DNA of 62,247 nucleotides from contig CAZOYI010000255.1 of the NCBI GenBank assembly GCA_964583965.1, positions 1 to 62,247 on the forward strand. Reading direction: 5' to 3'. The stretch is from an uncultured Caldisericota bacterium. Its GTDB lineage: Bacteria > Caldisericota > Caldisericia > UBA6126. Shown here one piece after another: positions 4,665-30,353 of this stretch (within the stretch, counting starts at the first letter, position 1; each line of letters begins with the position of its first letter). A program made the position numbers and the translations under genes. Below the pieces are notes generated by a model that was given only the letters and a program-made list of their open reading frames with translations, searched no databases and had not been told where the DNA came from.

Positions 4665-6092
4665 ATGAATATGTTGCAGAACATCTTTTACGCTTTACTA
4701 TCTGTCATTGGTATGGTACTTACCATACGCTTTTTTCTTTTTTTTCTTCTAGGTTGCAGAGAAAAATCAACTTCCAGACAAACAAAGTCTCAATTGTCAG
4801 ACAATTCTCTTTTTTTCAGTATTTTTATCCCTGCAAAAGAAGAATCCCAAGTAATAACAACAACCTTACATAAAGTATTACAAATCCAATATCCGAAAGA
4901 GAAGCAAGAAATTTTAATTATTACTGATCAAAAAGAAACTCTGAGAGTAGGCACTGCTTCCACTCGTAGAGTTCTTGAAAAGTGGATCCAAGAAAACCAT
5001 GCATTCACCAAGTATTCCTCTGACAAGAATCAATCCTACTTCAAAGGAGATTCGATTCCCTCCATATGGATATACGACGTTCCCTCAACCTACAATGGCA
5101 GAATTCCAGGGTCTACCGCAAACTATATGGTTCCTTCTTCTAAGGGAAGAGCATTGAATTATGCTCTATCGACCCATTCCTTCACAAAACCCCATCAATA
5201 CTGCACTTTTTTTGATGCAGAAACACATCCCGATGAATCTATTTTTTTAACCATCGACCGGATGACGTCAAAAACTGAACAGCTCGCTATTTGGCAAGGA
5301 CCAGCACTACAAGTCCGGAATTTTGCACAGTTGTCTCTCTTCTGCAGAATTGCTGCACTAACACAAGCGTTCTCTCACGATTACACTTTACCATCATTAC
5401 TTCGGTGGATTCCCTTTTTAGGTGGCACAAATATGCACATTCCCCATTCTATTCTTTCTTCTATTGGTGGTTTTCGATCTGATTGTGCAACAGAAGACAT
5501 TGATGCAGGAATTCGCATATGGGATCAATGCAACCAAATCCCTCAATTTCTCCCCGTTGTTTGCACAGAACAAACCCCAGCAAGTATAAAGGGATACTTT
5601 AACCAACGTTTGCGGTGGGGGAAGGGCATCATTGATGTTTTGCTCCACTCCAATTACGCATCCGTTCATTCAAAAAGGGAAAGACTTTGGATGCTGTGGA
5701 AGGTATTCTTTTTTGGCCCCTTTGAGTGGTATTTGTTTGGAATACTGTCACTCTTTTATTTGGTTCATACCGTCCAGAGACTTTCTTTCACATTTTCTCC
5801 TGATATCGTAGTATATTTTCTTTTTCTAGGGATTAGTGTGTTATTTTTGTTCTCGCTGTACATCTACTATCGACAATATATGCAGTACAAAGCATTTACA
5901 GAAAAAGAAATCATACAAGGGACATGGCTTGTTCTATACATCTTAGTGGTTCTGCCTTGGATCAGTTTTCTGTATGGACTGCCCTTTATATGGGGAAGTA
6001 TCATTTCGATCGTACAAAGAATAATGCAAAAACCTATTGCTTCGCACAAAGAGTTTTGGATGAAAACACCCAGAACAACCGAAAATAAGTAA
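4665..6092 (+). CDS. Integral-membrane family-2 glycosyltransferase of the processive synthase type
   Basis: N-terminal TM helix. GT2 core FSIFIPAKEE...ILIITD, FFDAETHPDE, ATEDIDAGIRI and the Q-x-x-R-W motif (NQRLRWGKG). About 4 C-terminal TM helices. Confidence 0.85.
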   Translation: MNMLQNIFYALLSVIGMVLTIRFFLFFLLGCREKSTSRQTKSQLSDNSLFFSIFIPAKEESQVITTTLHKVLQIQYPKEKQEILIITDQKETLRVGTASTRRVLEKWIQENHAFTKYSSDKNQSYFKGDSIPSIWIYDVPSTYNGRIPGSTANYMVPSSKGRALNYALSTHSFTKPHQYCTFFDAETHPDESIFLTIDRMTSKTEQLAIWQGPALQVRNFAQLSLFCRIAALTQAFSHDYTLPSLLRWIPFLGGTNMHIPHSILSSIGGFRSDCATEDIDAGIRIWDQCNQIPQFLPVVCTEQTPASIKGYFNQRLRWGKGIIDVLLHSNYASVHSKRERLWMLWKVFFFGPFEWYLFGILSLFYLVHTVQRLSFTFSPDIVVYFLFLGISVLFLFSLYIYYRQYMQYKAFTEKEIIQGTWLVLYILVVLPWISFLYGLPFIWGSIISIVQRIMQKPIASHKEFWMKTPRTTENK

Positions 6093-6093
6093 A

Positions 6094-9000
6094 TTATTCA
6101 TCTGCGGAAGAGGCGAGTGACCATCCTTCTACAACAACCAATTCCTTGCTTTCGTCTATATACTGAACACTAACTCCAAGCTTTTGGAAGATGAGATCAG
6201 CTCGAACTAAGAAATAATTGCCCACTGGTTGTAAAAATACTTCTTCGGTGGTTTCTGTTTTCCCATCAAGCGAATGATATGTATACGAAGAGCTCCCCTT
6301 CTTGGAAGTGAAACGGCCACAGTTTGTGTCAATCAAGATCAGATCTTTTTCGATCGTAAATTGCATATCGAAAAGTCTTCTCATGTCTTGAAGTGAAAGC
6401 CAGATTTTATCATTTTTCACTAAAGAACATAAAGTGCCAATAGCACACGCTTGATCAATGGTAAACAAGGGACTTCCATTTAGAAACTCCCACCGGGGTG
6501 GGACAGTCTGTATTTCAATAGGGATTATTTTCTTAACGGAGTCTATCTCTATCACAATTTCTTGAATCGTTTTCTCCTGAAATTCTCTCCATCCAAAGAT
6601 CTCGACACGGAAAGAAATAGAATTTCTTTTTAAAGGAGTATCATTCGTTCCCCAACCGAATCGAAAATACCTACTAATCACACCGGATGGTAAATGGAGG
6701 GTAATATCTTCGTATGTAGTCGGGATTGATACAGAGAAATACAAAGATGTAGAAGTATTTGGGTATACGTCACAAGAAAGTTGATTGGGGAAAACTACTA
6801 TATCTTCTGCCTTGAGAACCCTCTGGGAAGATTCATGCCTTTCCTTATGGTAAATTCTAATATGTCCAGATTTCTCGTCATATACATACCATTGATCTTC
6901 AGATTCAGTAAAACAGCCAATCGAAGGACATTGTGAAGAAGAAAACGAATCCACGACTACTTGGTCTTTTATGCTGTATATGGAGGATGTATTGCGATCT
7001 AGCAGTGAATAATCATTCTCTGAATATTGTATATTTGTTGGCTTTATAGGAAGAGGGAGAGTGGCTGTTGGGGTGAAGGATAAAAATCCTGCTGTATCAT
7101 AATGGAAAATTCCCTTAGTTGAAGAATCAAAAATGTGCACTTGGTCCTCTGCATCCAGATCCATTTGATCGAATGATGCTGGAATTTGCATGGGACTCTC
7201 ACCAGAAAGTAGTTTGCAAGTATCTGTCAATTCTCCATCCCATTGAAACCAATGCAAAGCAGATTGATATTGATCCAATATACAAAAGCCTGTATCATTC
7301 ACTGCCAATTGATCAGGAAAGAGAGAAGTTTGAATTTGAAGCTTTTCTGAGACTACCATTTTTTTCGATCCTTGGGGACTTATACGAAATTGACGAAACC
7401 AAAACTCTTTTGTTTCATGATGATAAAACAAGATGGAGTAGGTGTCTTTGTACCAATGTGTTGCATAAATGGAATCGATTTCTGGGTGCAATGCTGTAGT
7501 AGAAATACTTTTCAATTCTCCCGTTTGAAGATCTATTAACCGTATTCTCTGATCGGTATAAGGCATACCCTGTTCAATTGCCAAATAGGATGATTCTGGA
7601 ATTCGATGAAGTGACTGCACGTTGGATAAAAAGCTACTATCTTTTTGTGCTTCCTCTACATCACTAGAAAAAAGTTGGGTCTTCGATCCATGAGATAAAA
7701 GATGATCAAAAGTGAACAATCCGCTTTTTAACGCGATTTGACTTTGACCATGATAGGAGTACCCCAAAACAACGGCTCGATTTTTTAACATAGAGATTTT
7801 TTCTACCATATCCAAACCAAGGGAAAGATCGATTTCTTTCTTTTGGGAACGAATCTCTGTTTTGAGATCAAAAAAATACAACTTGGTTGGATTTTGCAAT
7901 GAACCAATAAGGCAAGTAAACGGATCAAGCATAAACAATCGATAGCAATATGACAAAGGAATTTCAAACTCCTGCATTTGAGAACCGTCAACATGAAGTG
8001 TAACCAAAGATCCCCAATAGGAGCATGCATAGATGGTGTCTTCTAAAATTTCAAAGTTATACAAATAATTGGGAATGGTGAGAGAAGACACTAATTTCCC
8101 AGTTGCAAGATCGAAAATATAGAATCCATTGTAAACATCCAAAATATATAAGGTGTCGCGATACACTTCCATGTCTGTCACAGTAGAATAATACACAATT
8201 GGCTGTAAAAACCTTTGGGTAGAGGTAGGCTGAATGATCGACGATAGTTGGGATGTTGTGCGGTCAAGAATTAAGAATTGATCATTCAATGAAAGAATGA
8301 TGTAGTCTTGATGCATTCGGAAAAAGAAGTGATTTGTAATGTGAGAAGACTGAATAAAAGATGGATACTGACGATATAGAAAATCTGGGTACTCAAAAAT
8401 TCGAGTAGTTGATTCACCTTCTACAAGATAGATTCCTGTAGGAGTACTTACATATAACTCGTCTTGATAGACATCGATGCAAGTGGGTAAATACATAGGA
8501 TATTTTTCCCGTCCAAGATAGGATTCATTTTCTTTGGATTCTTCAAAGGTTTGTAGGGATAGGACTTCCACAGTAGGATTCTCATGATGAATTTGCACTT
8601 CAGAAGATATTCGAATCGCTCGTGATGGCATGTAAACCTCAATAGAAGTCTCTGGTAGATATAGCAGGCATTCTACGCTGACAAGAGTTGTTCCATCCAT
8701 AAGAATAGCTGGATGATTTAACGAGTGAGTTTCTCCATCGACAATGATTTCCGTTTCACCGATGCGGAAAGATAACTTCGTATTGTTTTGATGGATGATA
8801 ATGGATTGCGTAGAAGAGTCCCAAAGAATTTCTCCACCCAATGCTTCAACTACATCACGTAGTGGACAGTACGAAATTTGATTCCGATATTGATAGGGTT
8901 GTTGCATGACAATACGTTTTCCATTTGCAACAGCACGAGCATCATCCATATGCATTTCAATCGATTTATAATCGTACCATGGCAGATGTACTTTAACAGC

Positions 9001-12000
9001 ATCTCCAATTTTGTCCTCCATTTGAGGAACAAGAGTGATATAGTCCAATTCTTTTTGATCTACTACGAAAACAAAACTACCATCTTCGTTACATGTTATC
9101 GTGGTTTCATTCCACTGGACAACGGCTTGAGGTGGTTGGACAAATCCAACTATTTCCATGCAGTTATAGAATTCATACATATCCTGTATGAACAAAGAAG
9201 GCTTTACTGCTTCTATGGGTTTTTCCTTCACTTCATACACAAGCGTATAGGTGTTGTCGGTTTTGTTCGTGTCTTGAATGCAGTCCAGTATGACTTCATC
9301 GGTATGTTTGCCAATTTCTTGGTTTTGGATGATCATTGAAATATGACGAGTTTCTTTGGGAAGCAAGTTTTGGAAATCTACTCGTTTTTCACCCACACGA
9401 ATAGAACCGTGGTCAATGGTTACCATGGATGTATTGACAATGGTGGATACGATTTCCATATCTTCTTCGGCGATTGGGATTGCAGGATGTATGGATACTC
9501 TTTCTAAAGCAGCATTGAGAAGTGGATTCCGAATCGTTCGTAAAAGATCCAAAAAGAACTCCAAAGAAGCTGGTTTTTGAGTAAAATCTTGATCGGATAA
9601 AAATCCCGAATAAAACCAGCGATTTTGATTCCGTATCAATGCTGCATATCCGCTTTCATCAATTCCAATCAATTCGGTGGAGGAGGAACGTTGAATTTGA
9701 TGCCAATTTCTCCCCTTGGGCAAGACGGTATAACGGTTTTGAATGGAATAGGAAGAGGATAAATACTTTTGTTCTCCTTGAATGCGAATCTCTGTTTCTG
9801 GTTTTGCGGTTCGATATAACAAGAAGCGTTCTTCGGGATCAATACCAAAAAAAGACTGAATGGATTGCAAATCCACTCCGTTATTGGATTGTCCCAAACA
9901 CAACAAACCTAAAACAACTCCTCCGTGAGAAGTAAAGCGTTCCAAGGAAGATTGAAAGGATTGAAGAGGATTGGTTGGTGGAAAATTATTGGTATACAAA
10001 ACGACAACATCAAAACCAAGCGCTTCGAAAGATAAATCACCATTGTCAAACACTTGATAAGGTACGGTACTAATTTCAATCTGTTCCTTTTTGTCTGCAA
10101 AAAAAGCATTTAACTTAGACAACTGGAGAGTGTTTTGAACATAGGTTGTGTGTAGACCAGAAGGATCGGTTAACACCCCAACTCGCATAATTGGCTGATC
10201 GATATATTGAACATCCCAGTCAACTGTATTATCAGAAGAGTTTGATTCTTTCAATAGTTTTTGCGTCTCAAGTCGATATGACACACTACTAGCATGCTTG
10301 GAGTGTAAAGAATAATAAAAAAACTTTTGTGACAGCACTGGTATTGGACTAATTGTCTTTCTTTTTAGCTCTTCTTCTCCTTCCAAACAAACAATATCAA
10401 ACTCTGTGGTAGGGTAAATTCCATCATTACGGATAGTAGCGTACTGAAAGCGAGTTTCTCCCTGTCTCAAAAGTTTCTGGGAATCTGAAGATACTACAAC
10501 AACATCATGATTGTATCGTCCATGAAAAACAATACGTTGTTCTTTTTGATCAGGAGTAATGAAGCGGAGTGCATAGGTTTTTTTGTGAAAATCATCAAAT
10601 TTCTTTTGGTGCATTCCATCGCTGTATTCAATGGATTCCGCTTCTTCTACAAAAGGAGTACTCATATTCGTATAATCGGCTATTACAACTCGCAACTTCT
10701 TTTCATTGGATTGAACACGAATTTCTTGTCCATCATCAATGGAAAACAAAGGCCAATTTCGATAGTCCTGTGGTTGCGACTCAATAGGTTGAATTGCGGG
10801 AACGTTTGAATCTGATTTTCGATCAAAATCAGGATACTCAATCGTAGGATCTCCTTGCAGAGTAAATCCAAAATATGTCTTTACATTCGCTCCATTCATA
10901 CCCCACATAAGTTGTCGATCTGCATAATGTATCAGAGCTTTTTTTGCCCAATCACCCAGTGCTCCTTCGCCCTGTGAATACACTTCTATAAAGTACTCCA
11001 ATATTGCGTCCATATAGTGGATGGAGGTTAGATAAGGTATTCCGTTTTGATAATGCATCGACCACCCAGCATAGTTTACTCGTGCGCCTCCAACATAGGC
11101 AATACCTGCTCCTTGAGACAAAAGTACAGCTTCTGAAAAACTCGTTGGATAAGGGTAGCTGGTATTGTTCTTGAATGGAGCATCCGCTAATCGGTTGTCC
11201 CATGCACCATTTCCGCATGCTTCGCTTAAAACAATAGGTAAACAAGATTTTTGGGGAATGGATAAAAGATCTTTGGCATTTGCGTATCCTGGTTCTAAAG
11301 CAAGTCCTTCACCAGATCCATGGCCAAATGCCCATAAGAAACCTCTTTTCCCCTCTTGGAGAACTCGCATAAATTCATCTTTGTTAAATTTGTTTTCAGT
11401 TCTATACAGTTTTTCTACTTCTAAAGAAGAAAAATAATTCTGGTTTACAGCCTGCGATGTGGCCAATTCACCAAAAAAATGTTCACCAAATGGTGCACCT
11501 GCCATTATGGTTGCTCGCGTGAGCCAAGAAGAATTTTTCGCAACAAGGTCTGCATATAGTTCTTGTTTTTCGACGATTGCATCGGCTTCTTCTCTGTCAC
11601 GAACAGGAAGTCTCCCCACGGCGATTTCGATGGGTACTTCTACGCCTTTTGAATGAGGGGATGCATAAAAAAGATCAGTAGGAACCCATTGATCATAACT
11701 ATTTCGTCGATCAGGAGAAAGAATATAGTACGATGGAGGAACACTTGTGGCATCACCTAAAATCGTAAGATACCCCAGTCCTTCATTCTCTACTACTTCT
11801 TTTAAGTAAGCTCGTAACTTAAAAGCTACTGTATAATCATATTTTGCAACACGGCTGCGAACAGATTCAGAGACATCCAAAAACCCCAAAGTGGACGGAT
11901 AAGCTGGGGCATCCAAAGGTTCTATTGTGTCTAATTCAGACAAAAGAACAACTCTAGAGGTATAACCACGTTTCTCTTGAATCGTTTGGAGTTTGTGTGC

Positions 12001-12726
12001 AGCTTCTTCATATTCATCGGGTGATACAATAATCGCATTTTTCGTGGTTTTTTTTGAGGAAGAAACAAGCCTAGAAGTGACCCCCATTTCGAATGTATAT
12101 GATTGGACAACATACAATTCCCCCCTCAATAGGAATACAGGGAAACAAGTTACCTGAACATATCGATCAAGAGAATCCCCTGAGATAATAAATTGAAGAT
12201 TCTTCGAAGGAAAGGTCTTGGAAATGTCGCTAGCTCTTATTGTAGAATTCACTGAATATATGTCGGACAAGGAAGCAAATTCTCCTGGATCATTCACAGA
12301 AATAACTTCTATATCCTTGATAGGAATAGGCTTTTGGGCTACCTCTAATGGAATATCACCGATAGGCATTTTTTTAACATCCATTGAAATGGTCTTTATA
12401 TACGCAATGGTTTCATTATCCTGCAATGGAATCTGAAAAGTATCCATGGGTACAATGGGGTGCTGTGGTTGATAATACGATGGTAAAGAACCTAAAGCAA
12501 TTCGATTTCCCATTTGGGAAGATTCTACTCGAAGCATTGAAGAGGAATACTTTCTTCGAATGGTTTTTGTCCGAAGAATATGTTGACCCAAAACATGAGT
12601 TTGTTCGCTATATGGCAAAAGATCATATTGCTGGGACGAAGAATGTGCAGCATGAGAAAAAGAAACATTGGTAAAAGCCAAAAAAATAACCAAACCAAAG
12701 GCACAAAGAGATCGTAACCACTTCAT
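6094..12726 (-). CDS. Giant secreted multidomain protein A (2,210 aa): C25/gingipain-like cysteine-peptidase core, Ig-like modules, copper-amine-oxidase-N-like stalk domains, long beta-propeller-like arrays
   Basis: Signal peptide MKWLRSLCAFGLVIFLAFTNVSFSHA. C25-type motifs YLTILGDATSVPPSYY, WVPTDLFYASP, VGRLPV, FGHGSG (His469, nt 11320..11322), SEACGNGAWD (Cys504, nt 11215..11217) and GIAYVGGARVNYAG. Stalk domain at about 8640..8965 (PLRDVVEALGGEILWD). Repeated blade-like [LI]Y[IV].D...G.[YF].[FI]D segments. GGAGG SD before the ATG. Confidence 0.85.
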   Translation of the reverse strand: MKWLRSLCAFGLVIFLAFTNVSFSHAAHSSSQQYDLLPYSEQTHVLGQHILRTKTIRRKYSSSMLRVESSQMGNRIALGSLPSYYQPQHPIVPMDTFQIPLQDNETIAYIKTISMDVKKMPIGDIPLEVAQKPIPIKDIEVISVNDPGEFASLSDIYSVNSTIRASDISKTFPSKNLQFIISGDSLDRYVQVTCFPVFLLRGELYVVQSYTFEMGVTSRLVSSSKKTTKNAIIVSPDEYEEAAHKLQTIQEKRGYTSRVVLLSELDTIEPLDAPAYPSTLGFLDVSESVRSRVAKYDYTVAFKLRAYLKEVVENEGLGYLTILGDATSVPPSYYILSPDRRNSYDQWVPTDLFYASPHSKGVEVPIEIAVGRLPVRDREEADAIVEKQELYADLVAKNSSWLTRATIMAGAPFGEHFFGELATSQAVNQNYFSSLEVEKLYRTENKFNKDEFMRVLQEGKRGFLWAFGHGSGEGLALEPGYANAKDLLSIPQKSCLPIVLSEACGNGAWDNRLADAPFKNNTSYPYPTSFSEAVLLSQGAGIAYVGGARVNYAGWSMHYQNGIPYLTSIHYMDAILEYFIEVYSQGEGALGDWAKKALIHYADRQLMWGMNGANVKTYFGFTLQGDPTIEYPDFDRKSDSNVPAIQPIESQPQDYRNWPLFSIDDGQEIRVQSNEKKLRVVIADYTNMSTPFVEEAESIEYSDGMHQKKFDDFHKKTYALRFITPDQKEQRIVFHGRYNHDVVVVSSDSQKLLRQGETRFQYATIRNDGIYPTTEFDIVCLEGEEELKRKTISPIPVLSQKFFYYSLHSKHASSVSYRLETQKLLKESNSSDNTVDWDVQYIDQPIMRVGVLTDPSGLHTTYVQNTLQLSKLNAFFADKKEQIEISTVPYQVFDNGDLSFEALGFDVVVLYTNNFPPTNPLQSFQSSLERFTSHGGVVLGLLCLGQSNNGVDLQSIQSFFGIDPEERFLLYRTAKPETEIRIQGEQKYLSSSYSIQNRYTVLPKGRNWHQIQRSSSTELIGIDESGYAALIRNQNRWFYSGFLSDQDFTQKPASLEFFLDLLRTIRNPLLNAALERVSIHPAIPIAEEDMEIVSTIVNTSMVTIDHGSIRVGEKRVDFQNLLPKETRHISMIIQNQEIGKHTDEVILDCIQDTNKTDNTYTLVYEVKEKPIEAVKPSLFIQDMYEFYNCMEIVGFVQPPQAVVQWNETTITCNEDGSFVFVVDQKELDYITLVPQMEDKIGDAVKVHLPWYDYKSIEMHMDDARAVANGKRIVMQQPYQYRNQISYCPLRDVVEALGGEILWDSSTQSIIIHQNNTKLSFRIGETEIIVDGETHSLNHPAILMDGTTLVSVECLLYLPETSIEVYMPSRAIRISSEVQIHHENPTVEVLSLQTFEESKENESYLGREKYPMYLPTCIDVYQDELYVSTPTGIYLVEGESTTRIFEYPDFLYRQYPSFIQSSHITNHFFFRMHQDYIILSLNDQFLILDRTTSQLSSIIQPTSTQRFLQPIVYYSTVTDMEVYRDTLYILDVYNGFYIFDLATGKLVSSLTIPNYLYNFEILEDTIYACSYWGSLVTLHVDGSQMQEFEIPLSYCYRLFMLDPFTCLIGSLQNPTKLYFFDLKTEIRSQKKEIDLSLGLDMVEKISMLKNRAVVLGYSYHGQSQIALKSGLFTFDHLLSHGSKTQLFSSDVEEAQKDSSFLSNVQSLHRIPESSYLAIEQGMPYTDQRIRLIDLQTGELKSISTTALHPEIDSIYATHWYKDTYSILFYHHETKEFWFRQFRISPQGSKKMVVSEKLQIQTSLFPDQLAVNDTGFCILDQYQSALHWFQWDGELTDTCKLLSGESPMQIPASFDQMDLDAEDQVHIFDSSTKGIFHYDTAGFLSFTPTATLPLPIKPTNIQYSENDYSLLDRNTSSIYSIKDQVVVDSFSSSQCPSIGCFTESEDQWYVYDEKSGHIRIYHKERHESSQRVLKAEDIVVFPNQLSCDVYPNTSTSLYFSVSIPTTYEDITLHLPSGVISRYFRFGWGTNDTPLKRNSISFRVEIFGWREFQEKTIQEIVIEIDSVKKIIPIEIQTVPPRWEFLNGSPLFTIDQACAIGTLCSLVKNDKIWLSLQDMRRLFDMQFTIEKDLILIDTNCGRFTSKKGSSSYTYHSLDGKTETTEEVFLQPVGNYFLVRADLIFQKLGVSVQYIDESKELVVVEGWSLASSADE

Positions 12727-12767
12727 AAGAACCTCCAGGATGCTGAGTGTTCTCTTATTATACCTGT

Positions 12768-15700
12768 TTATAATCCTGAAATGGTAACAGATTCAGCATT
12801 TCTTTTGATTCTTCCTTTTGCATATGTCACATATAGGGTAGGCTCAACAAATACGTATCTCTGAGAATTCTGTTGAAATAAAACTCCATCTCTGCGATAC
12901 CTTTGTCCTTCTGGATTTTGGTATACATACCAGTTTTCATTGAGCTGTGCCTCAAGGAGAATACCTCCAAAAGATAGGTAGTAGGTATCTTTTTTGCTAG
13001 ATATCTCGCATGGAAATATTGTTTCCATAAGCAATAGATCAATCCAACAATACTGTTGTTTTTTCTCTATCGTACATGGATTTTCGGACCAAAAGACACC
13101 CTTCCACGTATTTGCAAAGATAGAATGATTGTAAAAGGATACAAATTTCTCTTTCTGAACACATTGTATAGAAAGTTCTTTTTCAATTCCATCAACAATC
13201 ACTTTTAGCAAGATTGTTTTCTCTTCTTCTGGTACAAAAGATATTTGAATCACCTGGGATTGTTTTTGTTGTATTTCCTCAATATCAATTTCTTCATCCG
13301 ACGTTATTTGGAGTTCTGTAAAGGGAGCATTAATATAAATCCCTATTTGCTTGTTGATCTGCATTCCTGGATAGTATTCACATACGATGTGATCTTCGGA
13401 AAAAGAAATATCTTCTTCGGAAGAAACAGTATTCTCCTTTAAAAGTAGATTTTGCACACACACATTACCAGCAAGAGGGTCAAGGTACAGGATTTGATTT
13501 CCTTTAACATCCATGTCCCCTATAGAAGCTACTCCTAACGAATCTTGAGATATCCAACCGGTAATGCCTTCCTTTTTACACGTAAAGATATTTTTACTGA
13601 TAGAGTCATGAAAGTAAAAAATATCCCCATCAATTGACAAATAGTTCATTTGAAGAGAATTGGCAAATTGCGATCCGTCAAGGATTTTTGTAAAACCGTC
13701 TTCTGGTGAAACGGAAAAAATGTCTTCGTTAAAGAAATCAATAAAATAAACCACATCGTCAACAACCGTCAAATCCGATGCAGATAGAGGTGCATTCGCA
13801 GGATCTTCCAAAGCAAAGAATTGTCGATATGCCAGCTCTCCTGAAGAAAGATCAAACCAAAGTAGTGAATTTTTAAATGGATCATAGACAACCAAATAAT
13901 CACTAGTAAAGGTGTATGTGGCAAATGCAAAATCTCCATCTCCTACATTGATTTGATAGTATTTTCTATACGTTGGTTTTTCATCATGAAAATCGGTAAT
14001 GTCTAACAAAAACACCAGTTGCATTTCTTCTCCACTATAATCAATATCAAGTTTTAACGAAGAGTAGGATTCTCCGCTCCATGCATACCCAAGTAGCATT
14101 GAAAACATTGGGTTTGCTTTTGATCGTAATGAATGACGGACTATGCGATCCTCTTTTGTGTATAACACCTGATCGGGATCTCCAGGTTCAGATTGTGTAC
14201 ATACATAGCTATTTTGCTGAGGAATAATCTTGACTCCCGCTGGATTTGGAATCCAGTTTTTAAGACGCTTACAGTCCGAGATGTCTTCTTGAAGAGGATT
14301 CTTGTTTTTACCCCCATCGAAATCCAATTGAAGTACTTCTGTTGTAAACTCCAAAGATCCACCGGATTCTTCTTTAAGGATCCCGTAATGAGAAGGTCCA
14401 TCTGCTATGTAAACCAAGTCCCCGCGAAGTCGGGAAAAAGAAGAATACTCTTCCCAATCCTCCATGTCTATGGAATCATTGGACAATACTCGAGAAACCG
14501 ATAAAGGAACCCATTTTTCAACATCACCTAGATTATATAAAGCTAGCGTTGTGTTGTCGACAAACGTAACATTTGCAAAGCTATAGAAATTTTCTAGCAA
14601 GCATTCATGGAAGGAGAAGTCTTCTGGGTTGAATATTGTTAACACATCAAATAATGAAAAAACAGCGATATAGGAATCGGAGCAAGCCAAGGTTAGACCA
14701 AAATCTATTCCAATGGTGTATAGATACTCTTGAGTGACAACATTGTAAACCATCAACCCGTATAACGGACAGAGAACATACAGCAAATCGCCTCGTACGA
14801 ACATTCCTTCAATGCGGTAGAAATTTCTCTTTTCAACAAGAAGGTTGTGGTTTTCATATTTGGGTTGCAGTAAATCACATTCTTGAGTTTGGCGATGAAT
14901 ACGATATATTCCATTTTGGTTATGTAAGACAAAATAGTCTGAGTGAACTCCGAAGGAAAAATCTTCTGGATCAAAGGATAAAGATCGATGGGGAAAATCT
15001 TCAGGATAGGGAGTAAAAGATATCTTTTTTTCGCCTTGATATTGGTGTATTCCGAATGTTGTTGCAACAAACAATCCTTCTTCCGATTCTTGACAAGAAA
15101 GAACATAGGAGGGAATTTGTGCCTGGGTTGTAAACAGTTCTGTCTTCTGGAGGGAAGGAGCAGATTGTATGAATGCACTTGGTTCTACCTTCACAGAAGA
15201 AGGCTTGTAAGCTTTCAACGAAACTACTTGCGATACCCCATCCCAATCAATTTCTGCACCAAAGCATTCTGCAATAAATCGCAAAGGTACCATTGTTCTA
15301 CCATTCATGATAATTGGGGGAGAGTCGAGGAGAATTGACTTTTCTTCGCCATCCACAACTTCAATGGCTTCTGAATTTCCAATTTGAAGCTTGATGGATC
15401 GGTCGATATAGTGAATCTGGATTGTCTGTGTTTTATCTTCCCAAACTACTTTTGCTCCAAAACCATCTGCAATCACAGAAATAGGGACAACTGTACGGCC
15501 TGATAAAATGACGGGCGGAGAATCAATCTTCTTTGATTCGCCTTGGGTCATAATGTGACAATCTCCAATGTGAAGGAAAATTTCAGTCGATTCATACCAT
15601 TTTATGGGAATTTCCAGGGTTTTTCCTTGTACTTCGTCAAATTCAAGGTAACAGCGTAAAGAATCGGGGGCATCTGAGGGTTGAATATAAACTTCAAAAT

Positions 15701-18700
15701 CACCGTTTTGATCAATTGGTATTGTCTGATCTCCAATACGAAGGGAGGATCCAGGAAAACCTTTTCCAGAAAGCATGAATGAATCACCAAAAGCATAGAT
15801 TGGTTTTCCCTCCTCCCACTGATTCAGAGTAATTTGTAGATCTTCTTCAGATGGATCTGGTTTTTGAGCAATATAACGTAAAGAGTATTGGTCAAGAATC
15901 TCTTTCTGTTGGTCGCCCGTCATCAATACAAATTCATGAGAACAAGTGCCAACATGAGTGCTATGCAAAGAAGTTTCTATCACTTTTCTTTCGTGTGCTT
16001 CGAGTATTCCAACAGAGAGCTTCTCTTGATTGTTGACTTGCAGCCATAGATCATTTGTTGGTAAGCTGCTATGATTTACAATTTCGATACACCAAGGGAT
16101 TTCTGTAAACGCCGAGATTGAAGAAGAATCTTTTGATTCTACTAAACCAATGGATACATTTTGAATTGGGTCATACAAAGACTGTATTAAATCGTGAAAC
16201 AGATCAAATGTTTCCGATGATTTCGTAAAATACTGCTCATACATAAGCCCAGTAAAGAGAAAGATATTTTTATTGTTCTGAATCAGTGCCATTCCGTTTT
16301 GAGTCCCAGTTCCCACAATTTGGGCACTTTCCAAAAGATGTGATGAAGACCACTTTTGCTGACCAAACACTTCATCTTTCGGAATCAATGAATACTGGTT
16401 TTCAATTTGATAATTCGTTTTTTCGCTGTGAAGAAGGGGTTTTGTTAATTTGAACTCTGCTTTCGATTCGTCATTCACTTCTTCTGCAACAAATACATCA
16501 GGGCGTATTCCAAAAAAAGTTTGCAGCGACGTATTCTTCATATTCATCCGTTCGCTGCCCGCTATAGAGGAGTGAATTCCTAAAATCTTCCCTCCCTGTT
16601 GACTAAACTTTTCTAAGTCGGGGAGAATGAAACTATAATCCGCTCTCATCCAGAATGTTTCAAACAGGACAAGAGCGTCAAATCCTAACAAGTCATAGCT
16701 GATGCGACCTTTGGAGTCCTTTATCAATTCTACAACCTGCACTTCAATGGGCAAGTTTTCGGCAGAAAATTGTTTGTTGAGTTTATCCACCGACAAAAGA
16801 CCTTCTGCAAAACTGGGATAGTATTCCCCAGAACTGAGTACACCAACTCTACAGATTGGGTCTTCTTGGATTCGATATGTTACAGTTTCTTGGTTATCCT
16901 GGGAATAAGTTTCTCCTGAACTAACAGGTACATTGATTTGGGCAGTATATTCACCACTTGAAGGAAACTGATATTCATGCATCATTGTTTCAGAGAAATC
17001 TCGAGCAATGTAAGGAAAGGTTTTTTCAATTTTCTCCCCTGGTGAAGTTGTAATCTGAATAGAAGCATTTTTCATAGGGTGAATACCCTCGTTCATCACT
17101 TCCACCACGTGCACTCTTTTTTCATTTTTACGTAGAAGAGTGAGATCGTAAGATTCTTGAAGAGAAAGATCGTAGTCATATCGACCATCAAATACAATTC
17201 GTTTTTCTTTGAAATCTTCTGTGCTATATCGTATGGTAGCGTTTGTTTTTTGTAAGAAATCCAATGAAGTGCTGATTGTTTTCTCGTTAGTTAGGGACAA
17301 TTTACCACTACCGATCACTTGCTTTTCTTCATTATCCAAAGTGGCGTATATGTATTGAACCGAGGGAGAATCGGTTTGGATCTGACAATTCGTTTTTTGA
17401 TCAATAGATAGAATGGACCTTGTCCTACCAGTTAGAGATTTATAAAGACCACCGTTGAGAGTTATTTTGGGTACTTCAAAAGAAGGTTTTTTTTCAGGCA
17501 AAGGAATGCGGAGAGTAGGATCACCCAATAGGGTGAACCCAAACAATGTTTTAATATGAGGAGGCAACAAGTAGTAAGAAGTTTGTATGTCCATGATATA
17601 GTATTCTTCCAGTGCTTTCGTTGCCCAGTCTCCCAAAGATCCTTTTGGATTATCTTGAGAAGCAAGGAAGAAGTATTCAACAATAGCATCCATAAATCCT
17701 ACTTCTGATAGTTCTTGAATATAGTCTTCTTCTTTGATTCGATAACCAGCATAATTCACGCGAGCCCCGCCAACATAGGCAATTCCTGCACCAGAGGAAG
17801 CCAATACTGCCTCAGAAAAACTAGGTGTATGTTTTTTTCCAGATGGTGTTGTAAATCGAGTATCCCAAGCTCCATTCCCACAAGCTTCGCTGACAATAAC
17901 AGGAAGTTGGTTCTTTTGGGGGAGGTCCAGCAAATCTACGCCTTTCACGGCATCATCTTCTAACATAAACGCAGTTCCAGAACCATGACCCATATTCCAA
18001 ACAAAAGTAAGAAGTTCTTTTTGAAGGGTGGATAAAAACTCTTCTTTTGTAAATAAATCGGAGGTTTGAAATTTCTTATCAATCGAAAAACCATTAAACA
18101 CATCTTTATTAATCAAGCGACACTGATGTAATTCACCAAAATAGTCTCCCCTAAAGGGATCTCCTCCAAAAAGAGCGATAGCATTTTTCCATGTATCCGA
18201 TTCTGCAAGTGCTTTTCTATAGCGTCTAATTTTATCAATCTGAAATTGTGCTTCTTTTTTGCTTTGGACAGGTAAACGCCCTACAGTCACTTCAAATGTT
18301 AGTGTATCATCGTAGAACGGGGAAGAATAGTAGATATCCGTGGGTACCCACTGATCTATATGATCAAGCATATCAAAAGAAAACTCATAGTAAGAAGGAG
18401 GAATATAAGAAGCATCTCCTAAAATGGTGAGATAATCAATTTCATCTTTTTGTAGTTTCTCCCGAAGCATAGATCGTATACGTCCTGCTAAAGTAGCGTC
18501 ATAGTGTTGTATGCTTTCTCGAAATTCTTCAGAAGCTTCCAAAAAACCATCATTTATAGTCGGATCTTCCGCTACAGGATAGGATTGTACATTCGCTAAT
18601 GTGATTACAGAAGTCTCAAATCCATCTTCTTGTTGCATTTTGGCTAGTGCCGTTGCTTCTTCAAGTAATTCTGGTGGTGTTAAAATGATCGACGAATTGT

Positions 18701-19400
18701 TTTTTTCGTCGGGTCGATCTTCGTCGTCAGAAGATTGCAAACCTACTTCTAATTGCAATTCCGTAATTAGATAAGCATGGCCTTGATATAGATAAACAGG
18801 GTGAATATGTAATACCAGCTGCTTTTTTTGCTCATTGGTTGTAATAGCATGTTTTACATTTATATTTGGGAATACTTGCGAGTACTCATGAATAGAAACC
18901 CATTCCCTCAAGGGTTCTTCAAGAGACATTCCTAATACGCTTTCACTTTGTCTGTTTTCTTCCTTTAAATATTGCAGTTTGATCTTTTCAAATGAATCAG
19001 TAAAGGTCTTTGCTTCTGGTGCACAGGCGAGAGCATCTTGCTGAAGTACAATTTTTTTCGCTTTTACATGTTTTGTGAGGATATAACTGGGTATTTCATT
19101 ATTTTGTATGTCAATATTTCTTGTAACAATAGGCAAAATAGGTTTTCCGGGATGGAATACATAGGAGCAATCTGCCATCTGAAAACGAATTCCATTAGAT
19201 TCTTCTACAATTTGTAATGAGTCTAAAATATTGAATCTTAAAGGGATTGTCCGAAAAATATTAGATTGGTCAGAACAATCATTAGGTAAAATGAGAAATG
19301 AATAGGGTTTCGTTTGTGCAGTAAGTTTTGCAGGAAACAAAGAAACCATAGCAAACATAACGGATAAAGAAACACAGATCACGAATTGAATAAATTTCAT
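12768..19400 (-). CDS. Giant secreted multidomain protein B (2,210 aa), diverged paralogue of A with the same architecture
   Basis: Signal peptide MKFIQFVICVSLSVMFAMVSLFPAKLTA. YLTILGDASYIPPSYY, WVPTDIYYSSP, VGRLPV, MGHGSG (His472, nt 17985..17987), SEACGNGAWD (Cys507, nt 17880..17882). Double stalk domain at about 15195..15585 (GRTVVPISVIADGFGAKVVWE, GRTMVPLRFIAECFGAEIDWD). Propeller-like repeats. GGGGGAG SD. Confidence 0.85.
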   Translation of the reverse strand: MKFIQFVICVSLSVMFAMVSLFPAKLTAQTKPYSFLILPNDCSDQSNIFRTIPLRFNILDSLQIVEESNGIRFQMADCSYVFHPGKPILPIVTRNIDIQNNEIPSYILTKHVKAKKIVLQQDALACAPEAKTFTDSFEKIKLQYLKEENRQSESVLGMSLEEPLREWVSIHEYSQVFPNINVKHAITTNEQKKQLVLHIHPVYLYQGHAYLITELQLEVGLQSSDDEDRPDEKNNSSIILTPPELLEEATALAKMQQEDGFETSVITLANVQSYPVAEDPTINDGFLEASEEFRESIQHYDATLAGRIRSMLREKLQKDEIDYLTILGDASYIPPSYYEFSFDMLDHIDQWVPTDIYYSSPFYDDTLTFEVTVGRLPVQSKKEAQFQIDKIRRYRKALAESDTWKNAIALFGGDPFRGDYFGELHQCRLINKDVFNGFSIDKKFQTSDLFTKEEFLSTLQKELLTFVWNMGHGSGTAFMLEDDAVKGVDLLDLPQKNQLPVIVSEACGNGAWDTRFTTPSGKKHTPSFSEAVLASSGAGIAYVGGARVNYAGYRIKEEDYIQELSEVGFMDAIVEYFFLASQDNPKGSLGDWATKALEEYYIMDIQTSYYLLPPHIKTLFGFTLLGDPTLRIPLPEKKPSFEVPKITLNGGLYKSLTGRTRSILSIDQKTNCQIQTDSPSVQYIYATLDNEEKQVIGSGKLSLTNEKTISTSLDFLQKTNATIRYSTEDFKEKRIVFDGRYDYDLSLQESYDLTLLRKNEKRVHVVEVMNEGIHPMKNASIQITTSPGEKIEKTFPYIARDFSETMMHEYQFPSSGEYTAQINVPVSSGETYSQDNQETVTYRIQEDPICRVGVLSSGEYYPSFAEGLLSVDKLNKQFSAENLPIEVQVVELIKDSKGRISYDLLGFDALVLFETFWMRADYSFILPDLEKFSQQGGKILGIHSSIAGSERMNMKNTSLQTFFGIRPDVFVAEEVNDESKAEFKLTKPLLHSEKTNYQIENQYSLIPKDEVFGQQKWSSSHLLESAQIVGTGTQNGMALIQNNKNIFLFTGLMYEQYFTKSSETFDLFHDLIQSLYDPIQNVSIGLVESKDSSSISAFTEIPWCIEIVNHSSLPTNDLWLQVNNQEKLSVGILEAHERKVIETSLHSTHVGTCSHEFVLMTGDQQKEILDQYSLRYIAQKPDPSEEDLQITLNQWEEGKPIYAFGDSFMLSGKGFPGSSLRIGDQTIPIDQNGDFEVYIQPSDAPDSLRCYLEFDEVQGKTLEIPIKWYESTEIFLHIGDCHIMTQGESKKIDSPPVILSGRTVVPISVIADGFGAKVVWEDKTQTIQIHYIDRSIKLQIGNSEAIEVVDGEEKSILLDSPPIIMNGRTMVPLRFIAECFGAEIDWDGVSQVVSLKAYKPSSVKVEPSAFIQSAPSLQKTELFTTQAQIPSYVLSCQESEEGLFVATTFGIHQYQGEKKISFTPYPEDFPHRSLSFDPEDFSFGVHSDYFVLHNQNGIYRIHRQTQECDLLQPKYENHNLLVEKRNFYRIEGMFVRGDLLYVLCPLYGLMVYNVVTQEYLYTIGIDFGLTLACSDSYIAVFSLFDVLTIFNPEDFSFHECLLENFYSFANVTFVDNTTLALYNLGDVEKWVPLSVSRVLSNDSIDMEDWEEYSSFSRLRGDLVYIADGPSHYGILKEESGGSLEFTTEVLQLDFDGGKNKNPLQEDISDCKRLKNWIPNPAGVKIIPQQNSYVCTQSEPGDPDQVLYTKEDRIVRHSLRSKANPMFSMLLGYAWSGESYSSLKLDIDYSGEEMQLVFLLDITDFHDEKPTYRKYYQINVGDGDFAFATYTFTSDYLVVYDPFKNSLLWFDLSSGELAYRQFFALEDPANAPLSASDLTVVDDVVYFIDFFNEDIFSVSPEDGFTKILDGSQFANSLQMNYLSIDGDIFYFHDSISKNIFTCKKEGITGWISQDSLGVASIGDMDVKGNQILYLDPLAGNVCVQNLLLKENTVSSEEDISFSEDHIVCEYYPGMQINKQIGIYINAPFTELQITSDEEIDIEEIQQKQSQVIQISFVPEEEKTILLKVIVDGIEKELSIQCVQKEKFVSFYNHSIFANTWKGVFWSENPCTIEKKQQYCWIDLLLMETIFPCEISSKKDTYYLSFGGILLEAQLNENWYVYQNPEGQRYRRDGVLFQQNSQRYVFVEPTLYVTYAKGRIKRNAESVTISGL

Positions 19401-19449
19401 CTACTCCCCCTAAAAAAAGTAACTTCATAAAAGCTATCATAAAATAAAT

Positions 19450-20673: not shown

Positions 20674-20676
20674 AAT

Positions 20677-28564: not shown

Positions 28565-28581
28565 GTCAAACTCACGGGTGT

Positions 28582-30113: not shown

Positions 30114-30121
30114 ATAAACCT

Positions 30122-30313: not shown

Positions 30314-30353
30314 ATCAAACCTCATCAAATTAGTTTCAATTGAAATCATAGTA

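What the first reader, a model, noticed from the sequence alone, without database searches (positions are those of the whole stretch)
6094..19400. Tandem pair of secreted giants, each exactly 2,210 codons: C25-type Cys-protease core fused to stalk domains and long propeller arrays
Seen in the sequence:
- Two adjacent minus-strand ORFs of identical length (6,633 nt each), 41 nt apart, each with its own GGAGG-type SD and a signal peptide.
- Both keep the clan-CD/C25 (gingipain family) signature in the same order: YLTILGDA..PPSYY, WVPTD, VGRLPV, GHGSG (His) and SEACGNGAWD (Cys).
- After the core each has: a beta-alpha-beta region starting RVGVL... (flavodoxin/ThuA-like by pattern only), Ig-like modules, 1-2 copper-amine-oxidase-N-like stalk domains, and about 700+ residues of blade-like repeats.
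- Identity is high only in the catalytic core (about half of the residues by eye). Synonymous sites differ heavily (compare 11041..11100 with 17741..17800), and local indels are visible (KNNTSYPYPTSFSE versus GKKHTPSFSE). So the duplication is old and this is not an assembly artefact.
- Despite that, the total lengths are identical.

Inference: this is a dedicated, possibly heteromeric, wall-associated extracellular protease or scaffold of a kind I cannot match to a characterised system. C25 cores are best known from Bacteroidota gingipains, not from monoderm-type stalk-domain proteins.
Basis: partly seen in the sequence, partly recalled or inferred. Interest (0 to 1): 0.78.

Follow-up and report, generated by a model that had tools for sequence, protein, structure and literature searches.

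The report
Paired giant C25 surface peptidases, Caldisericia
Two adjacent genes each encode a 2,210-residue secreted protein with a gingipain-type cysteine-protease core, spacer and wall-binding-type domains and two beta-propellers; the pair is real, old and conserved in uncultured Caldisericia, but the identical length is a coincidence.

Summary
There are two minus-strand ORFs, 6094..12726 (A) and 12768..19400 (B), each 2,210 codons and 41 nt apart. Both have signal peptides and a full-length Pfam Peptidase_C25 match (E 1e-37 and 1e-39).

His469/Cys504 are invariant in 28 family members and align with RgpB His211/Cys244. Predicted folds (pLDDT 83) best match RgpB, Kgp and PorU.

Domain order: signal peptide, C25-propeptide-like beta-sandwich, C25 core, Ig/CARDB domains, an unassigned alpha/beta domain, CARDB/Ig, Cu_amine_oxidN1, about 12 blades (probably two six-bladed propellers, NHL-like), Ig, second Cu_amine_oxidN1.

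A and B are old paralogues: 27% identity, 63 indels. Each evolves under purifying selection (dN/dS about 0.11). The cluster aspS–U1–U2–B–A–GT2 recurs in five other Caldisericota genomes.

The equal length is chance. Other pairs are 2211/2210, 2209/2214, 2205/2209, 2205/2213 and 2234/2192, within a narrow family range of 2163–2234.

Full-length relatives occur only in Caldisericota. NCBI already labels some of them "C25 family cysteine peptidase".

The most likely function is a wall-associated zymogen cysteine endopeptidase, possibly specific for basic residues. A PorU/PorZ-like surface-attachment role is the more novel alternative. Heteromer formation and the ThuA-like assignment remain unsupported.

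The parts
6094..12726 (-). Gene A (downstream paralogue), 2210 aa secreted multidomain C25-family protein
   Evidence: ORF. Pfam C25 E 6e-37 and Cu_amine_oxidN1. Identical to database protein P0001. dN/dS 0.11 against the 82%-identical orthologue.
12768..19400 (-). Gene B (upstream paralogue), 2210 aa, same architecture. Catalytic His472 (codon 17985..17987), Cys507 (17880..17882), Glu423 (18132..18134)
   Evidence: ORF. Pfam C25 E 1.4e-39 and Cu_amine_oxidN1 E 4e-30. Orthologues P0022/P0023 (82-83%) and P0017 (36%). dN/dS 0.115. Residue positions.
12727..12767 (-). 41-nt B-A spacer with a TATAAT box and the GGAGG ribosome-binding site of A
   Evidence: The sequence and its conservation (TATAAT plus GGAGG) in 5 of 6 orthologous loci. 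The promoter role is inferred, not shown.
12649..12726 (-). A: Sec-type signal peptide (about residues 1-26)
   Evidence: Sequence MKWLRSLCAFGLVIFLAFTNVSFSHA. Helix 2-18 followed by disorder in the model.
12052..12609 (-). A: N-terminal beta-sandwich, C25-propeptide-like (residues 40-225)
   Evidence: All-beta in the model. The family profile aligns to the Propeptide_C25 region of P0030/P0031, E 1e-9 to 3e-10 for a four-sequence search. P0030 82-199 matches the RgpB pro-domain 4ief_A weakly, E 0.0095.
10807..12051 (-). A: C25 catalytic domain (residues 226-640). His469 (codon 11320..11322), Cys504 (11215..11217), Glu420 (11467..11469)
   Evidence: Pfam 232-630 covers profile positions 2-373 of 374. 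H469, C504 and E420 are invariant in 28 sequences. The profile aligns them with RgpB His211, Cys244 and Asp163. Foldseek top hits are RgpB, Kgp and PorU.
10198..10806 (-). A: Ig-like/CARDB beta-sandwich domains (residues 641-843)
   Evidence: Beta-sandwich strands in the model. A CARDB hit at the equivalent position 728-812 in paralogue P0018.
9523..10197 (-). A: conserved alpha/beta domain starting RVGVL (residues 844-1068), family unassigned
   Evidence: Alternating strand/helix pattern, pLDDT 80-93. Invariant R848, G850, G935, G936, G961 and no conserved Cys or His. No Pfam or PDB sequence match.
8980..9522 (-). A: CARDB plus Glucodextran_B-type Ig domains (residues 1069-1249)
   Evidence: CARDB at 1062-1156 and Glucodextran_B at 1179-1245 in paralogues. 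PDB 2l0d 'cell surface protein' is a weak hit. Beta strands in the models.
8572..8979 (-). A: first Cu_amine_oxidN1 ('stalk') domain (residues 1250-1385)
   Evidence: Pfam E 1e-17 at 1267-1353. PDB profile hit to the E. coli amine oxidase N-domain.
6790..8490 (-). A: about 12 four-stranded blades, probably two six-bladed beta-propellers (residues about 1413-1979); the second is NHL-like
   Evidence: 12 sets of 4 strands in the model, pLDDT mostly 85-94. Profile hits to TRIM2/3/71 NHL domains, E 1e-11, and to a PQQ-like propeller. Foldseek hits to tandem-propeller proteins including BT4663, BT4673 and BT3049. DUF5128 six-bladed propeller in paralogues.
6496..6789 (-). A: Ig-like beta-sandwich (residues about 1980-2077)
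   Evidence: Strand pattern in the model.
6097..6495 (-). A: second, divergent Cu_amine_oxidN1-like domain at the C-terminus (residues 2078-2210)
   Evidence: hhalign of the family slice 2078-2210 against slice 1250-1385: probability 97.2%, E 2.8e-11. Pfam detects it directly in paralogues P0026 and P0008.
19450..20673 (-). U2: conserved 407-aa secreted, beta-rich protein immediately upstream of B; function unknown
   Evidence: Syntenic in all six loci, 41-77% identity. Only chance-level Pfam and PDB hits.
20677..21744 (-). U1: conserved 355-aa membrane-anchored protein, possibly NlpC/P60-like; its start overlaps the end of aspS
   Evidence: Syntenic in all six loci, 52-81% identity, with invariant C244, H297 and H315. 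The Pfam NLPC_P60 hit is below cut-off, E 3e-3. No PDB match.
4665..6092 (+). Convergent GT2 glycosyltransferase whose stop lies 1 nt from A's stop; conserved neighbour
   Evidence: Pfam Glyco_tranf_2_3. Present at the same place in all orthologous loci.

Best explanation
A and B are two anciently duplicated, co-oriented genes for cell-surface cysteine peptidases of MEROPS family C25 (clan CD) in an uncultured Caldisericia bacterium.

Proposed pathway for each protein:
1. It is exported by Sec.
2. It is held inactive by an N-terminal propeptide-like beta-sandwich.
3. It is activated by removal of that domain.
4. It cuts proteins with a His/Cys dyad. The S1 pocket holds an invariant Glu at the position of RgpB Asp163, which suggests a preference for Arg or Lys.

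Proposed roles of the other domains:
- The Ig/CARDB domains act as spacers.
- The two Cu_amine_oxidN1 domains hold the protein at the wall or mediate dimerisation.
- The twin propellers bind the substrate or an envelope ligand.

The two paralogues differ most in the propellers, so they probably recognise different targets.

Shown: the genes, their architecture, the conserved catalytic residues, purifying selection and conserved synteny.

Inferred: activity, zymogen behaviour, specificity, wall attachment and biological role. The role could be nutrient proteolysis or processing of envelope proteins.
For: - Pfam Peptidase_C25 covers the full profile in both proteins, E 1e-37 and 1e-39.
- H469, C504 and E420 are invariant in 28 family members.
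- The family profile aligns them to RgpB His211, Cys244 and Asp163.
- The AF2 model has pLDDT 83, and its best Foldseek hits are RgpB (E 2e-15, TM 0.64 on the target), Kgp and PorU.
- The N-terminal domain is homologous to the Propeptide_C25 region of P0030/31.
- Signal peptides are present and there is no further membrane anchor or LPXTG motif.
- There are two Cu_amine_oxidN1 domains. This domain occurs in surface proteins of monoderm Firmicutes (PMC4137172). In Paenibacillus PaSOD, the N-terminal domain that NCBI labels with this name mediates homodimerisation (PMC10432803).
- The same domain recurs in other secreted proteins of this window and its orthologous loci.
- dN/dS is 0.06-0.20 in every domain of both genes.
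- The cluster is conserved in five other Caldisericota genomes.
Against: - No experimental data exist for any family member.
- The family is not closer to gingipains than to the transpeptidase PorU in sequence. NCBIfam PorU hits are E 1e-8 and 4e-15, and the only C25-family PDB hit is PorU. Hydrolysis therefore cannot be told apart from transpeptidation.
- The RgpB sequence used was recalled from memory. Its numbering is self-consistent, but it is not a database record.
- The genes sit in a housekeeping run (hisS-aspS-U1-U2-B-A), which fits an envelope-building role as well as a nutritional one.
- Wall binding by Cu_amine_oxidN1 has not been demonstrated biochemically.
- Signal-peptide cleavage was not predicted with a dedicated tool.
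Confidence: 0.55

Rival explanations
1. Surface-attachment (sortase-like) machine. The C25 domain works like PorU: it cleaves a signal from secreted envelope proteins and transfers them onto a wall glycopolymer. The twin propellers plus beta-sandwich play the part of PorZ or BT4663 by binding that glycan. On this reading, A and B are PorU and PorZ functions fused in one chain in a bacterium without an outer membrane or T9SS.
For: - The only NCBIfam hits are to the PorU sortase model.
- PorU is the only C25-family protein among the PDB sequence hits, and it is also a Foldseek hit.
- The C-terminal half matches the twin-propeller-plus-beta-domain sensors BT4663, BT4673 and BT3049 at E about 1e-16. 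The PorZ structure paper names these same proteins as PorZ's closest architecture (PMC5121618).
- PorZ hands A-LPS to PorU (PMC8545088).
- Conserved neighbours are a GT2 and a possibly NlpC/P60-like protein.
- The window holds an LCP/TagO-like/Wzy wall-polymer cluster.
- The genes lie in a housekeeping run, as expected for a core envelope function.
Against: - PorU scores are far below the family cut-off (33-55 bits against 420).
- Foldseek TM-scores for the propeller half are low (0.18-0.26), and any tandem propeller matches.
- The propellers appear six-bladed, not seven-bladed as in PorZ.
- PorZ itself was not in the top 50 hits.
- No candidate cargo signal was identified.
- An acidic S1 residue like that of RgpB is more typical of an endopeptidase.
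- The analogy rests on architecture, not on homology of the propeller part.
Confidence: 0.2
2. Mainly structural envelope proteins (an S-layer-like or sheath-like coat). The peptidase domain serves only self-processing or is vestigial. The many beta domains and stalk domains build a surface lattice, possibly as an A/B heteromer.
For: - Very large size and a fixed length (SD 16 aa in 27 proteins).
- Several paralogues per roughly 2-Mb genome.
- Housekeeping context.
- Two Cu_amine_oxidN1 domains; in PaSOD the domain annotated with that name dimerises the protein (PMC10432803).
- Conserved pairing of A with B in six genomes.
Against: - The catalytic His, Cys and S1 Glu are invariant in all 28 members.
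- The C25 core is the most constrained part (dN/dS 0.06-0.08). That is hard to explain for a vestigial or single-use domain.
- No SLH or known S-layer domain is present.
- Other paralogues occur singly, so pairing is not obligatory for the family.
Confidence: 0.15
3. The identical length reflects a functional constraint, for example a molecular-ruler heterodimer that needs equal arms.
For: - The pair in the window is 2210/2210 and its closest relative is 2211/2210.
- The family length range is narrow.
Against: - The other orthologous pairs are 2209/2214, 2205/2209, 2205/2213 and 2234/2192.
- 63 indels cancel by chance, with running offsets down to -22.
- With SD 16, two draws coincide with probability of about 1.7%. 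That is unremarkable for one feature picked out by eye.
Confidence: 0.03

Closest known systems
Gingipains RgpB and Kgp of Porphyromonas gingivalis (MEROPS C25; PDB 1CVR, 4IEF, 4RBM)
   Same: - Pfam C25 core.
- His-Gly ... Ala-Cys dyad in the same order and aligned.
- An acidic residue at the RgpB Asp163 (S1) position.
- An N-terminal beta-sandwich propeptide-like domain.
- An Ig-like domain after the core.
- Best structural match.
   Different: - About 13% identity, with no direct sequence hit to PDB gingipains.
- No T9SS C-terminal domain and no haemagglutinin/adhesin domains.
- About 1,570 extra residues: an alpha/beta domain, CARDB domains, two stalk domains and twin propellers.
- The host is a Caldisericia bacterium, a phylum reported to lack LPS genes.
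PorU, the T9SS sortase (C25-like transpeptidase; PDB 6ZA2), with its partner PorZ (twin beta-propeller plus CTD; PMC5121618, PMC8545088)
   Same: - C25-like core, and the closest family by NCBIfam and by PDB sequence profile.
- A large multidomain surface protein.
- The C-terminal half has the 'two propellers plus beta-sandwich' layout shared by PorZ and BT4663.
   Different: - Scores are far below the PorU model cut-off.
- No T9SS, CTD or A-LPS in this lineage.
- The propellers are fused to the enzyme rather than being a separate protein, and appear six-bladed.
- No evidence of transpeptidation.
Cu_amine_oxidN1 ('stalk' domain) surface proteins of monoderm Firmicutes (PF07833)
   Same: A secreted protein carrying PF07833 without an amine-oxidase catalytic domain, as in Desulfotomaculum surface proteins and Paenibacillus PaSOD (PMC4137172, PMC10432803).
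   Different: In the papers read, the PF07833 partners are wall hydrolases (glycoside hydrolase, M23) or a superoxide dismutase, not a C25 peptidase with propellers. Here there are two copies per chain.
Smaller C25 proteins with Propeptide_C25 and FlgD_ig domains (P0030/P0031), and pro+C25 relatives in a Sedimentisphaerales (Planctomycetota), a Pirellulales and an Aenigmarchaeota genome
   Same: They share the propeptide-like domain and the C25 core.
   Different: They match only the first 600-830 residues. None carries the alpha/beta domain, the stalk domains or the propeller half.

Membership tests
Peptidase family C25 (Pfam PF01364, MEROPS C25, clan CD) | Significant full-length match to the family profile | tested here: met
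   A scores 128 bits (E 6e-37) and B 137 bits (E 1.4e-39), against a cut-off of 23. Both cover profile positions 2-373 of 374. All 28 relatives carry PF01364.
Peptidase family C25 (Pfam PF01364, MEROPS C25, clan CD) | Catalytic His then Cys, each after a hydrophobic strand (the clan-CD 'His-Gly ... Ala-Cys' pattern), aligned with gingipain His211/Cys244 | tested here: met
   H469 and C504 are invariant in 28 sequences. hmmsearch of the family profile against RgpB pairs fgHGsG with tgHGSe and seaCgng with dvaCvng.
Peptidase family C25 (Pfam PF01364, MEROPS C25, clan CD) | Caspase-hemoglobinase-type alpha/beta fold of the catalytic domain | tested here: met
   In the AF2 model of residues 1-1200 (pLDDT 83), residues 230-630 are alpha/beta. 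Foldseek top hits are 4ief_B, 1cvr, 6i9a and 4rbm, E 2e-15 to 3e-14, TM 0.59-0.64 on the target.
Peptidase family C25 (Pfam PF01364, MEROPS C25, clan CD) | Demonstrated peptidase activity | not testable with these tools
   Needs biochemistry.
Gingipains proper (Arg/Lys-specific, T9SS-secreted) | T9SS C-terminal sorting domain and a Bacteroidota T9SS host | tested here: not met
   The C-terminus is a Cu_amine_oxidN1-like domain. No CTD family was detected. The host is Caldisericota.
Gingipains proper (Arg/Lys-specific, T9SS-secreted) | Acidic S1 residue that confers basic-residue specificity | tested here: inconclusive
   Invariant E420 aligns with RgpB Asp163 in a profile-sequence alignment. 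No 3-D superposition or activity data.
PorU T9SS sortase (NCBIfam NF033707) | Score at or above the curated equivalog cut-off | tested here: not met
   33 and 55 bits against a cut-off of 420; only the catalytic segment aligns.
Cu_amine_oxidN1 domain proteins (PF07833) | Significant match to PF07833 | tested here: met
   A E 1.3e-17, B E 4.4e-30. The second, C-terminal copy is shown by hhalign, probability 97%, and by direct Pfam hits in paralogues.
   No Pfam hit at E<=1 in A or in four paralogues. The 12-sequence profile against PDB gives only chance-level hits. The fold is alpha/beta, but no domain-level structure search was possible.
NHL / six-bladed beta-propeller | Profile match to NHL repeats and a blade count of six | tested here: met
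   The family profile hits TRIM2/3/71 NHL domains at E 1e-11 to 1e-8 over positions 1800-1958. DUF5128 six-bladed propeller in paralogues. 12 blades in the model.

The most novel reading that the evidence does not exclude
These proteins are a fused counterpart of the PorU-PorZ attachment complex in a bacterium that probably lacks an outer membrane. A C25 transpeptidase and a twin-propeller glycan binder sit in one 2,200-residue chain and covalently anchor secreted proteins to a wall glycopolymer. They would work with the conserved NlpC/P60-like and GT2 neighbours. If so, C25 'sortases' are an envelope-assembly principle that exists outside Bacteroidota and T9SS.
Probability: 0.15. Interest if true: 0.75.

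Novelty: new variant of a known kind. Interest (0 to 1): 0.38.

Why it matters
Caldisericota is a deep-branching phylum that is almost entirely uncultured, and its cell surface is essentially unknown. This family, with several 6.6-kb paralogues per roughly 2-Mb genome, is a large and strongly conserved investment in the envelope.

It shows a gingipain/PorU-type catalytic core in an architecture not found in any other lineage searched, in a host that probably lacks an outer membrane. If the proteins are nutritional proteases, they are candidates for the protein-degrading role of Caldisericia in digesters and sediments. If they are attachment enzymes, they would extend C25 sortase chemistry beyond the type IX secretion system.

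The result also shows that the striking equal length was a coincidence and should not be pursued.

Tried and rejected
- **Direct phmmer of the A N-terminus against PDB:** no hit. Even the full-family profile reached only PorU, at E 0.025. The dyad alignment therefore needed a profile against an RgpB sequence recalled from memory.
- **ThuA-like assignment:** Pfam on slices of A and on four paralogues, and a 12-sequence profile against PDB, gave nothing meaningful. The guess is rejected at sequence level.
- **The search for homologous proteins with the alpha/beta-domain profile A4:** it returned no hits at all, not even family members. This is uninformative and reflects tool sensitivity.
- **Profile search of the 5.8-billion-protein set with A1:** it added only four shorter relatives.
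- **U1 and U2 profiles against PDB:** none, or chance-level only. The NlpC/P60 label for U1 rests on a sub-threshold Pfam hit plus an invariant Cys/His/His.
- **The 356-aa gene after paralogue P0013:** it is not related to U1 or U2, so the accessory genes are specific to the A/B cluster.
- **Promoter and terminator scan:** counts equal the shuffled expectation, so it gives no information on operon boundaries.
- **Rfam:** nothing in the window.
- **dN/dS between A and B:** meaningless because dS is saturated. Only orthologue comparisons were used.
- **Equal length as a constraint:** rejected.
- **Assembly artefact or recent duplication:** rejected (27% identity; each copy has its own orthologues).

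Full report

Yes. The ORF listing gives two minus-strand ORFs, 6094..12726 (A, downstream) and 12768..19400 (B, upstream). Each is 2,210 aa and they are separated by 41 nt.

Both translations start with a typical Sec signal: a basic n-region, a hydrophobic core and a small-residue end. A is preceded by GGAGG and B by AGGGGGAG.

A global alignment has 26.6% identity and 63 indels, with 92 gap residues on each side. Identity is highest in the catalytic core (41% for residues 226-640, 55% for 501-600). It falls to 16-21% in the C-terminal third. Synonymous divergence between A and B is saturated. The duplication is therefore ancient and not an artefact.

**2. What the proteins are**

*Family match.* Pfam finds Peptidase_C25 over the whole profile (positions 2-373 of 374) in both proteins, at E 6e-37 and 1.4e-39. 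It also finds one Cu_amine_oxidN1 domain in each.

*Catalytic residues.* An alignment of 28 family members shows His469, Cys504 and Glu420 (A numbering) to be invariant. A profile of the family core pairs the HG motif with RgpB His211 and the AC motif with Cys244. It pairs Glu420 with Asp163, the S1 residue that gives RgpB its Arg specificity. The RgpB sequence was recalled from memory. It places H, C, E and D at the published positions 211, 244, 152 and 163, which supports the recollection, but it is not a database record.

*Predicted structure.* AlphaFold2 was run with the 28-sequence (N-terminal half) and 25-sequence (C-terminal half) family alignments and gave pLDDT 83 for both halves. The best structural matches of the N-terminal half are RgpB (4IEF, 1CVR; E 2e-15, TM 0.64 on the target), Kgp, and then PorU.

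*Propeptide-like domain.* The all-beta domain before the core (residues 40-225) aligns to the Propeptide_C25 region of the shorter relatives P0030 and P0031. That region in turn weakly matches the RgpB pro-domain (E 0.0095).

**3. The rest of the architecture**

- **Residues 641-843:** Ig-like/CARDB sandwiches.
- **Residues 844-1068:** a well-conserved alpha/beta domain starting RVGVL, with invariant Gly and Arg residues but no conserved Cys or His. There is no Pfam hit in A or in four paralogues, and a 12-sequence profile against PDB gives only chance-level hits.
- **Residues 1069-1249:** CARDB and Glucodextran_B-type Ig domains.
- **Residues 1250-1385:** Cu_amine_oxidN1.
- **Residues 1386-1399:** a disordered linker.
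- **Residues about 1413-1979:** twelve four-stranded blades, read as two six-bladed propellers. The second propeller matches NHL domains of TRIM2/3/71 at E about 1e-11, and the first gives a weaker PQQ-like match. By Foldseek the whole half resembles tandem-propeller proteins, including the BT4663, BT4673 and BT3049 sensor domains.
- **Residues about 1980-2077:** an Ig-like sandwich.
- **Residues 2078-2210:** a second, divergent Cu_amine_oxidN1 domain. hhalign against the first copy gives probability 97%, E 2.8e-11, and Pfam detects it directly in paralogues.

There is no LPXTG motif, SLH domain, T9SS CTD or extra membrane segment.

**4. Relatives, context and the length question**

*Distribution.* The 5.8-billion-protein search returned 27 hits. 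The named ones are all Caldisericia MAG proteins, and some are already called "C25 family cysteine peptidase" by NCBI. A scan of one genome per GTDB species found relatives that match more than about 1,000 residues in MAGs labelled Caldisericota/Caldisericia, often several per genome. The exceptions by label are one unclassified 'bacterium' MAG and one record labelled Calditrichota whose contig matches an ENA Caldisericia contig. A Sedimentisphaerales (Planctomycetota), a Pirellulales and an Aenigmarchaeota genome match only the pro+C25 part.

An exhaustive HMMER search of 1.84 billion representatives used the C-terminal half as query. It found about 20 proteins that match beyond the stalk domain. 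The complete ones are 2,098-2,271 aa and the rest are shorter proteins or fragments. The roughly 2,200 other hits match the stalk domain only.

*Orthologues.* A has orthologues at 82, 61, 58, 58 and 41% identity. B has orthologues at 82-83% and 36%.

*Synteny.* Five orthologous loci show the same cluster: aspS – U1 – U2 – B – A – convergent GT2, then (where the contig extends that far) GAF – ECF sigma – a ~750-aa protein – Cu_amine_oxidN1 proteins. In the most distant locus, L003, a phospholipase-B gene follows the GT2 instead. U1 is 345-355 aa, membrane-anchored, and gives a sub-threshold NlpC/P60 hit with an invariant Cys/His/His. U2 is 407-423 aa, secreted and beta-rich.

*Pair lengths (B/A).*

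| Locus | B | A |
|---|---|---|
| Window | 2210 | 2210 |
| L006 | 2211 | 2210 |
| L008 | 2209 | 2214 |
| L001 | 2205 | 2209 |
| L007 | 2205 | 2213 |
| L003 | 2234 | 2192 |

Equality is therefore not conserved. Within the A/B alignment the running offset reaches -22 residues before cancelling. Family lengths have mean 2,200 and SD 16 (n=27), so two members coincide about 1.7% of the time. The real feature is a rigid domain architecture, not a ruler.

*Selection.* Against the 82-83% orthologues, dN/dS is 0.11 for both genes. It ranges from 0.06 to 0.20 across the folded domains and is lowest in the C25 core. Both genes and all their domains are maintained.

**5. Host and envelope**

The literature reports Caldiserica as lacking LPS genes (PMC5007114) and groups it with lineages that lost the outer membrane (10.1101/2021.05.31.446380).

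The window itself carries a wall-glycopolymer and peptidoglycan cluster: sugar-nucleotide enzymes, Wzy_C, an LCP ligase, MurJ, MurA, a UDP-GlcNAc 2-epimerase and a TagO-like GT4. It also carries another Cohesin–Glucodextran_B–Cu_amine_oxidN1 protein.

Cu_amine_oxidN1 is thus a recurrent module of secreted proteins in this organism. It is known from surface proteins of monoderm Firmicutes (PMC4137172). In Paenibacillus PaSOD, the N-terminal domain carrying this annotation mediates dimerisation (PMC10432803).

**6. How it most likely works**

*Best explanation (0.55).* A and B are Sec-exported, wall-associated zymogen cysteine endopeptidases. The propeptide-like domain is removed. The His/Cys dyad with an acidic S1 residue then cleaves, probably after basic residues. 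The Ig domains act as spacers, and the propellers select substrates or envelope ligands. The two paralogues have diverged in that binding part.

- Shown: architecture, conserved catalytic residues, selection and synteny.
- Inferred: activity, specificity, anchoring and biological role.

*Rival 1 (0.20).* A PorU/PorZ-like attachment enzyme. The family is at least as close to PorU as to gingipains in sequence. Its C-terminal half has the 'two propellers plus beta-sandwich' layout that the PorZ paper compares with BT4663 (PMC5121618). PorZ feeds a glycolipid to PorU (PMC8545088). The neighbours are glycan- and wall-related. Against this, the scores are far below the PorU cut-off, any tandem propeller matches, and no cargo signal is known.

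*Rival 2 (0.15).* A mainly structural coat protein. This is weakened by the strict conservation of the catalytic residues.

*Rival 3 (0.03).* Equal length as a functional constraint. The orthologous pairs contradict it.

**7. Novelty and score**

C25 membership is established and is already reflected in automated annotation. What is new is the Caldisericota-restricted 2,200-residue architecture and its conserved paralogous pair with two accessory genes. None of this has been studied.

I rate it a new variant of a known kind. Interest is moderate (0.38). It is useful for understanding an obscure phylum's surface. However, the feature that made it look extraordinary (identical lengths) is chance, and the mechanism remains inferential.

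Noticed in passing
window 12727..12767 (B-A spacer); L001, L006, L007, L008 9959..10000: A TATAAT box about 25 nt upstream of A's ATG is conserved in 5 of 6 orthologous loci, even though the proteins are only 58-82% identical. In the most distant locus (L003) the spacer is 107 nt and contains a GC hairpin followed by a T-run. This suggests A may have its own promoter, and that B may have a terminator in some lineages.
   Followed up: partly
window 6094..24732 (minus strand): hisS, aspS, U1, U2, B and A lie on one strand with junctions of -11, -28, +3, +49 and +41 nt. U1's start codon lies inside the end of aspS, and does so in the orthologous loci too. The giant genes may be co-transcribed with two aminoacyl-tRNA synthetase genes. 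The promoter/terminator scan was uninformative.
   Followed up: partly
window 6092..6094: The stop codons of gene A (minus strand) and of the convergent GT2 gene 4665..6092 (plus strand) are 1 nt apart, which leaves no room for an intergenic terminator. In the orthologous loci the gap between the two genes is 5-17 nt.
   Followed up: no
window 26521..41227: A long minus-strand cluster for wall or secondary-polymer synthesis: two NAD-epimerase/dehydratases, a nucleotidyl transferase, a GT1, a Wzy_C polymerase/ligase, an LytR-CpsA-Psr ligase (34666..35685), MurJ, a MurA-like protein, a UDP-GlcNAc 2-epimerase and a TagO/WecA-like GT4. This is consistent with a teichoic-acid-like polymer in a bacterium without an outer membrane.
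   Followed up: partly
window 55511..57202 (-); window 1..1168 and 1169..3424 (-); L001 21581..26630: Other secreted proteins combine Cohesin and/or Glucodextran_B with a C-terminal Cu_amine_oxidN1 domain. In the orthologous loci an ECF sigma factor (window 3400..3966), a ~750-aa putative partner and two such proteins form a conserved operon just downstream of the GT2/GAF genes. L005 has a 911-aa protein with C25, Cohesin and Cu_amine_oxidN1. The stalk domain looks like this lineage's general surface-display module.
   Followed up: partly
L013 (DAIMET010000010.1) versus L006 (ENA ERZ795057 NODE_545): The GTDB record is labelled 'Calditrichota bacterium', but its contig has the same length (38,941 bp), the same range and the same genes as a contig whose protein NCBI calls Caldisericia. 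This is probably a taxonomic mislabel in one record.
   Followed up: no
window 32001..34000: AT skew jumps to +0.21, against about 0 elsewhere, over the Wzy_C/GT1 genes. This is probably the T-rich codon bias of a polytopic membrane protein on the minus strand.
   Followed up: no
window 50685..53137 (-): An S41 (PDZ) tail-specific protease and an M23 peptidase sit side by side. They are further envelope-processing enzymes in the same window.
   Followed up: no
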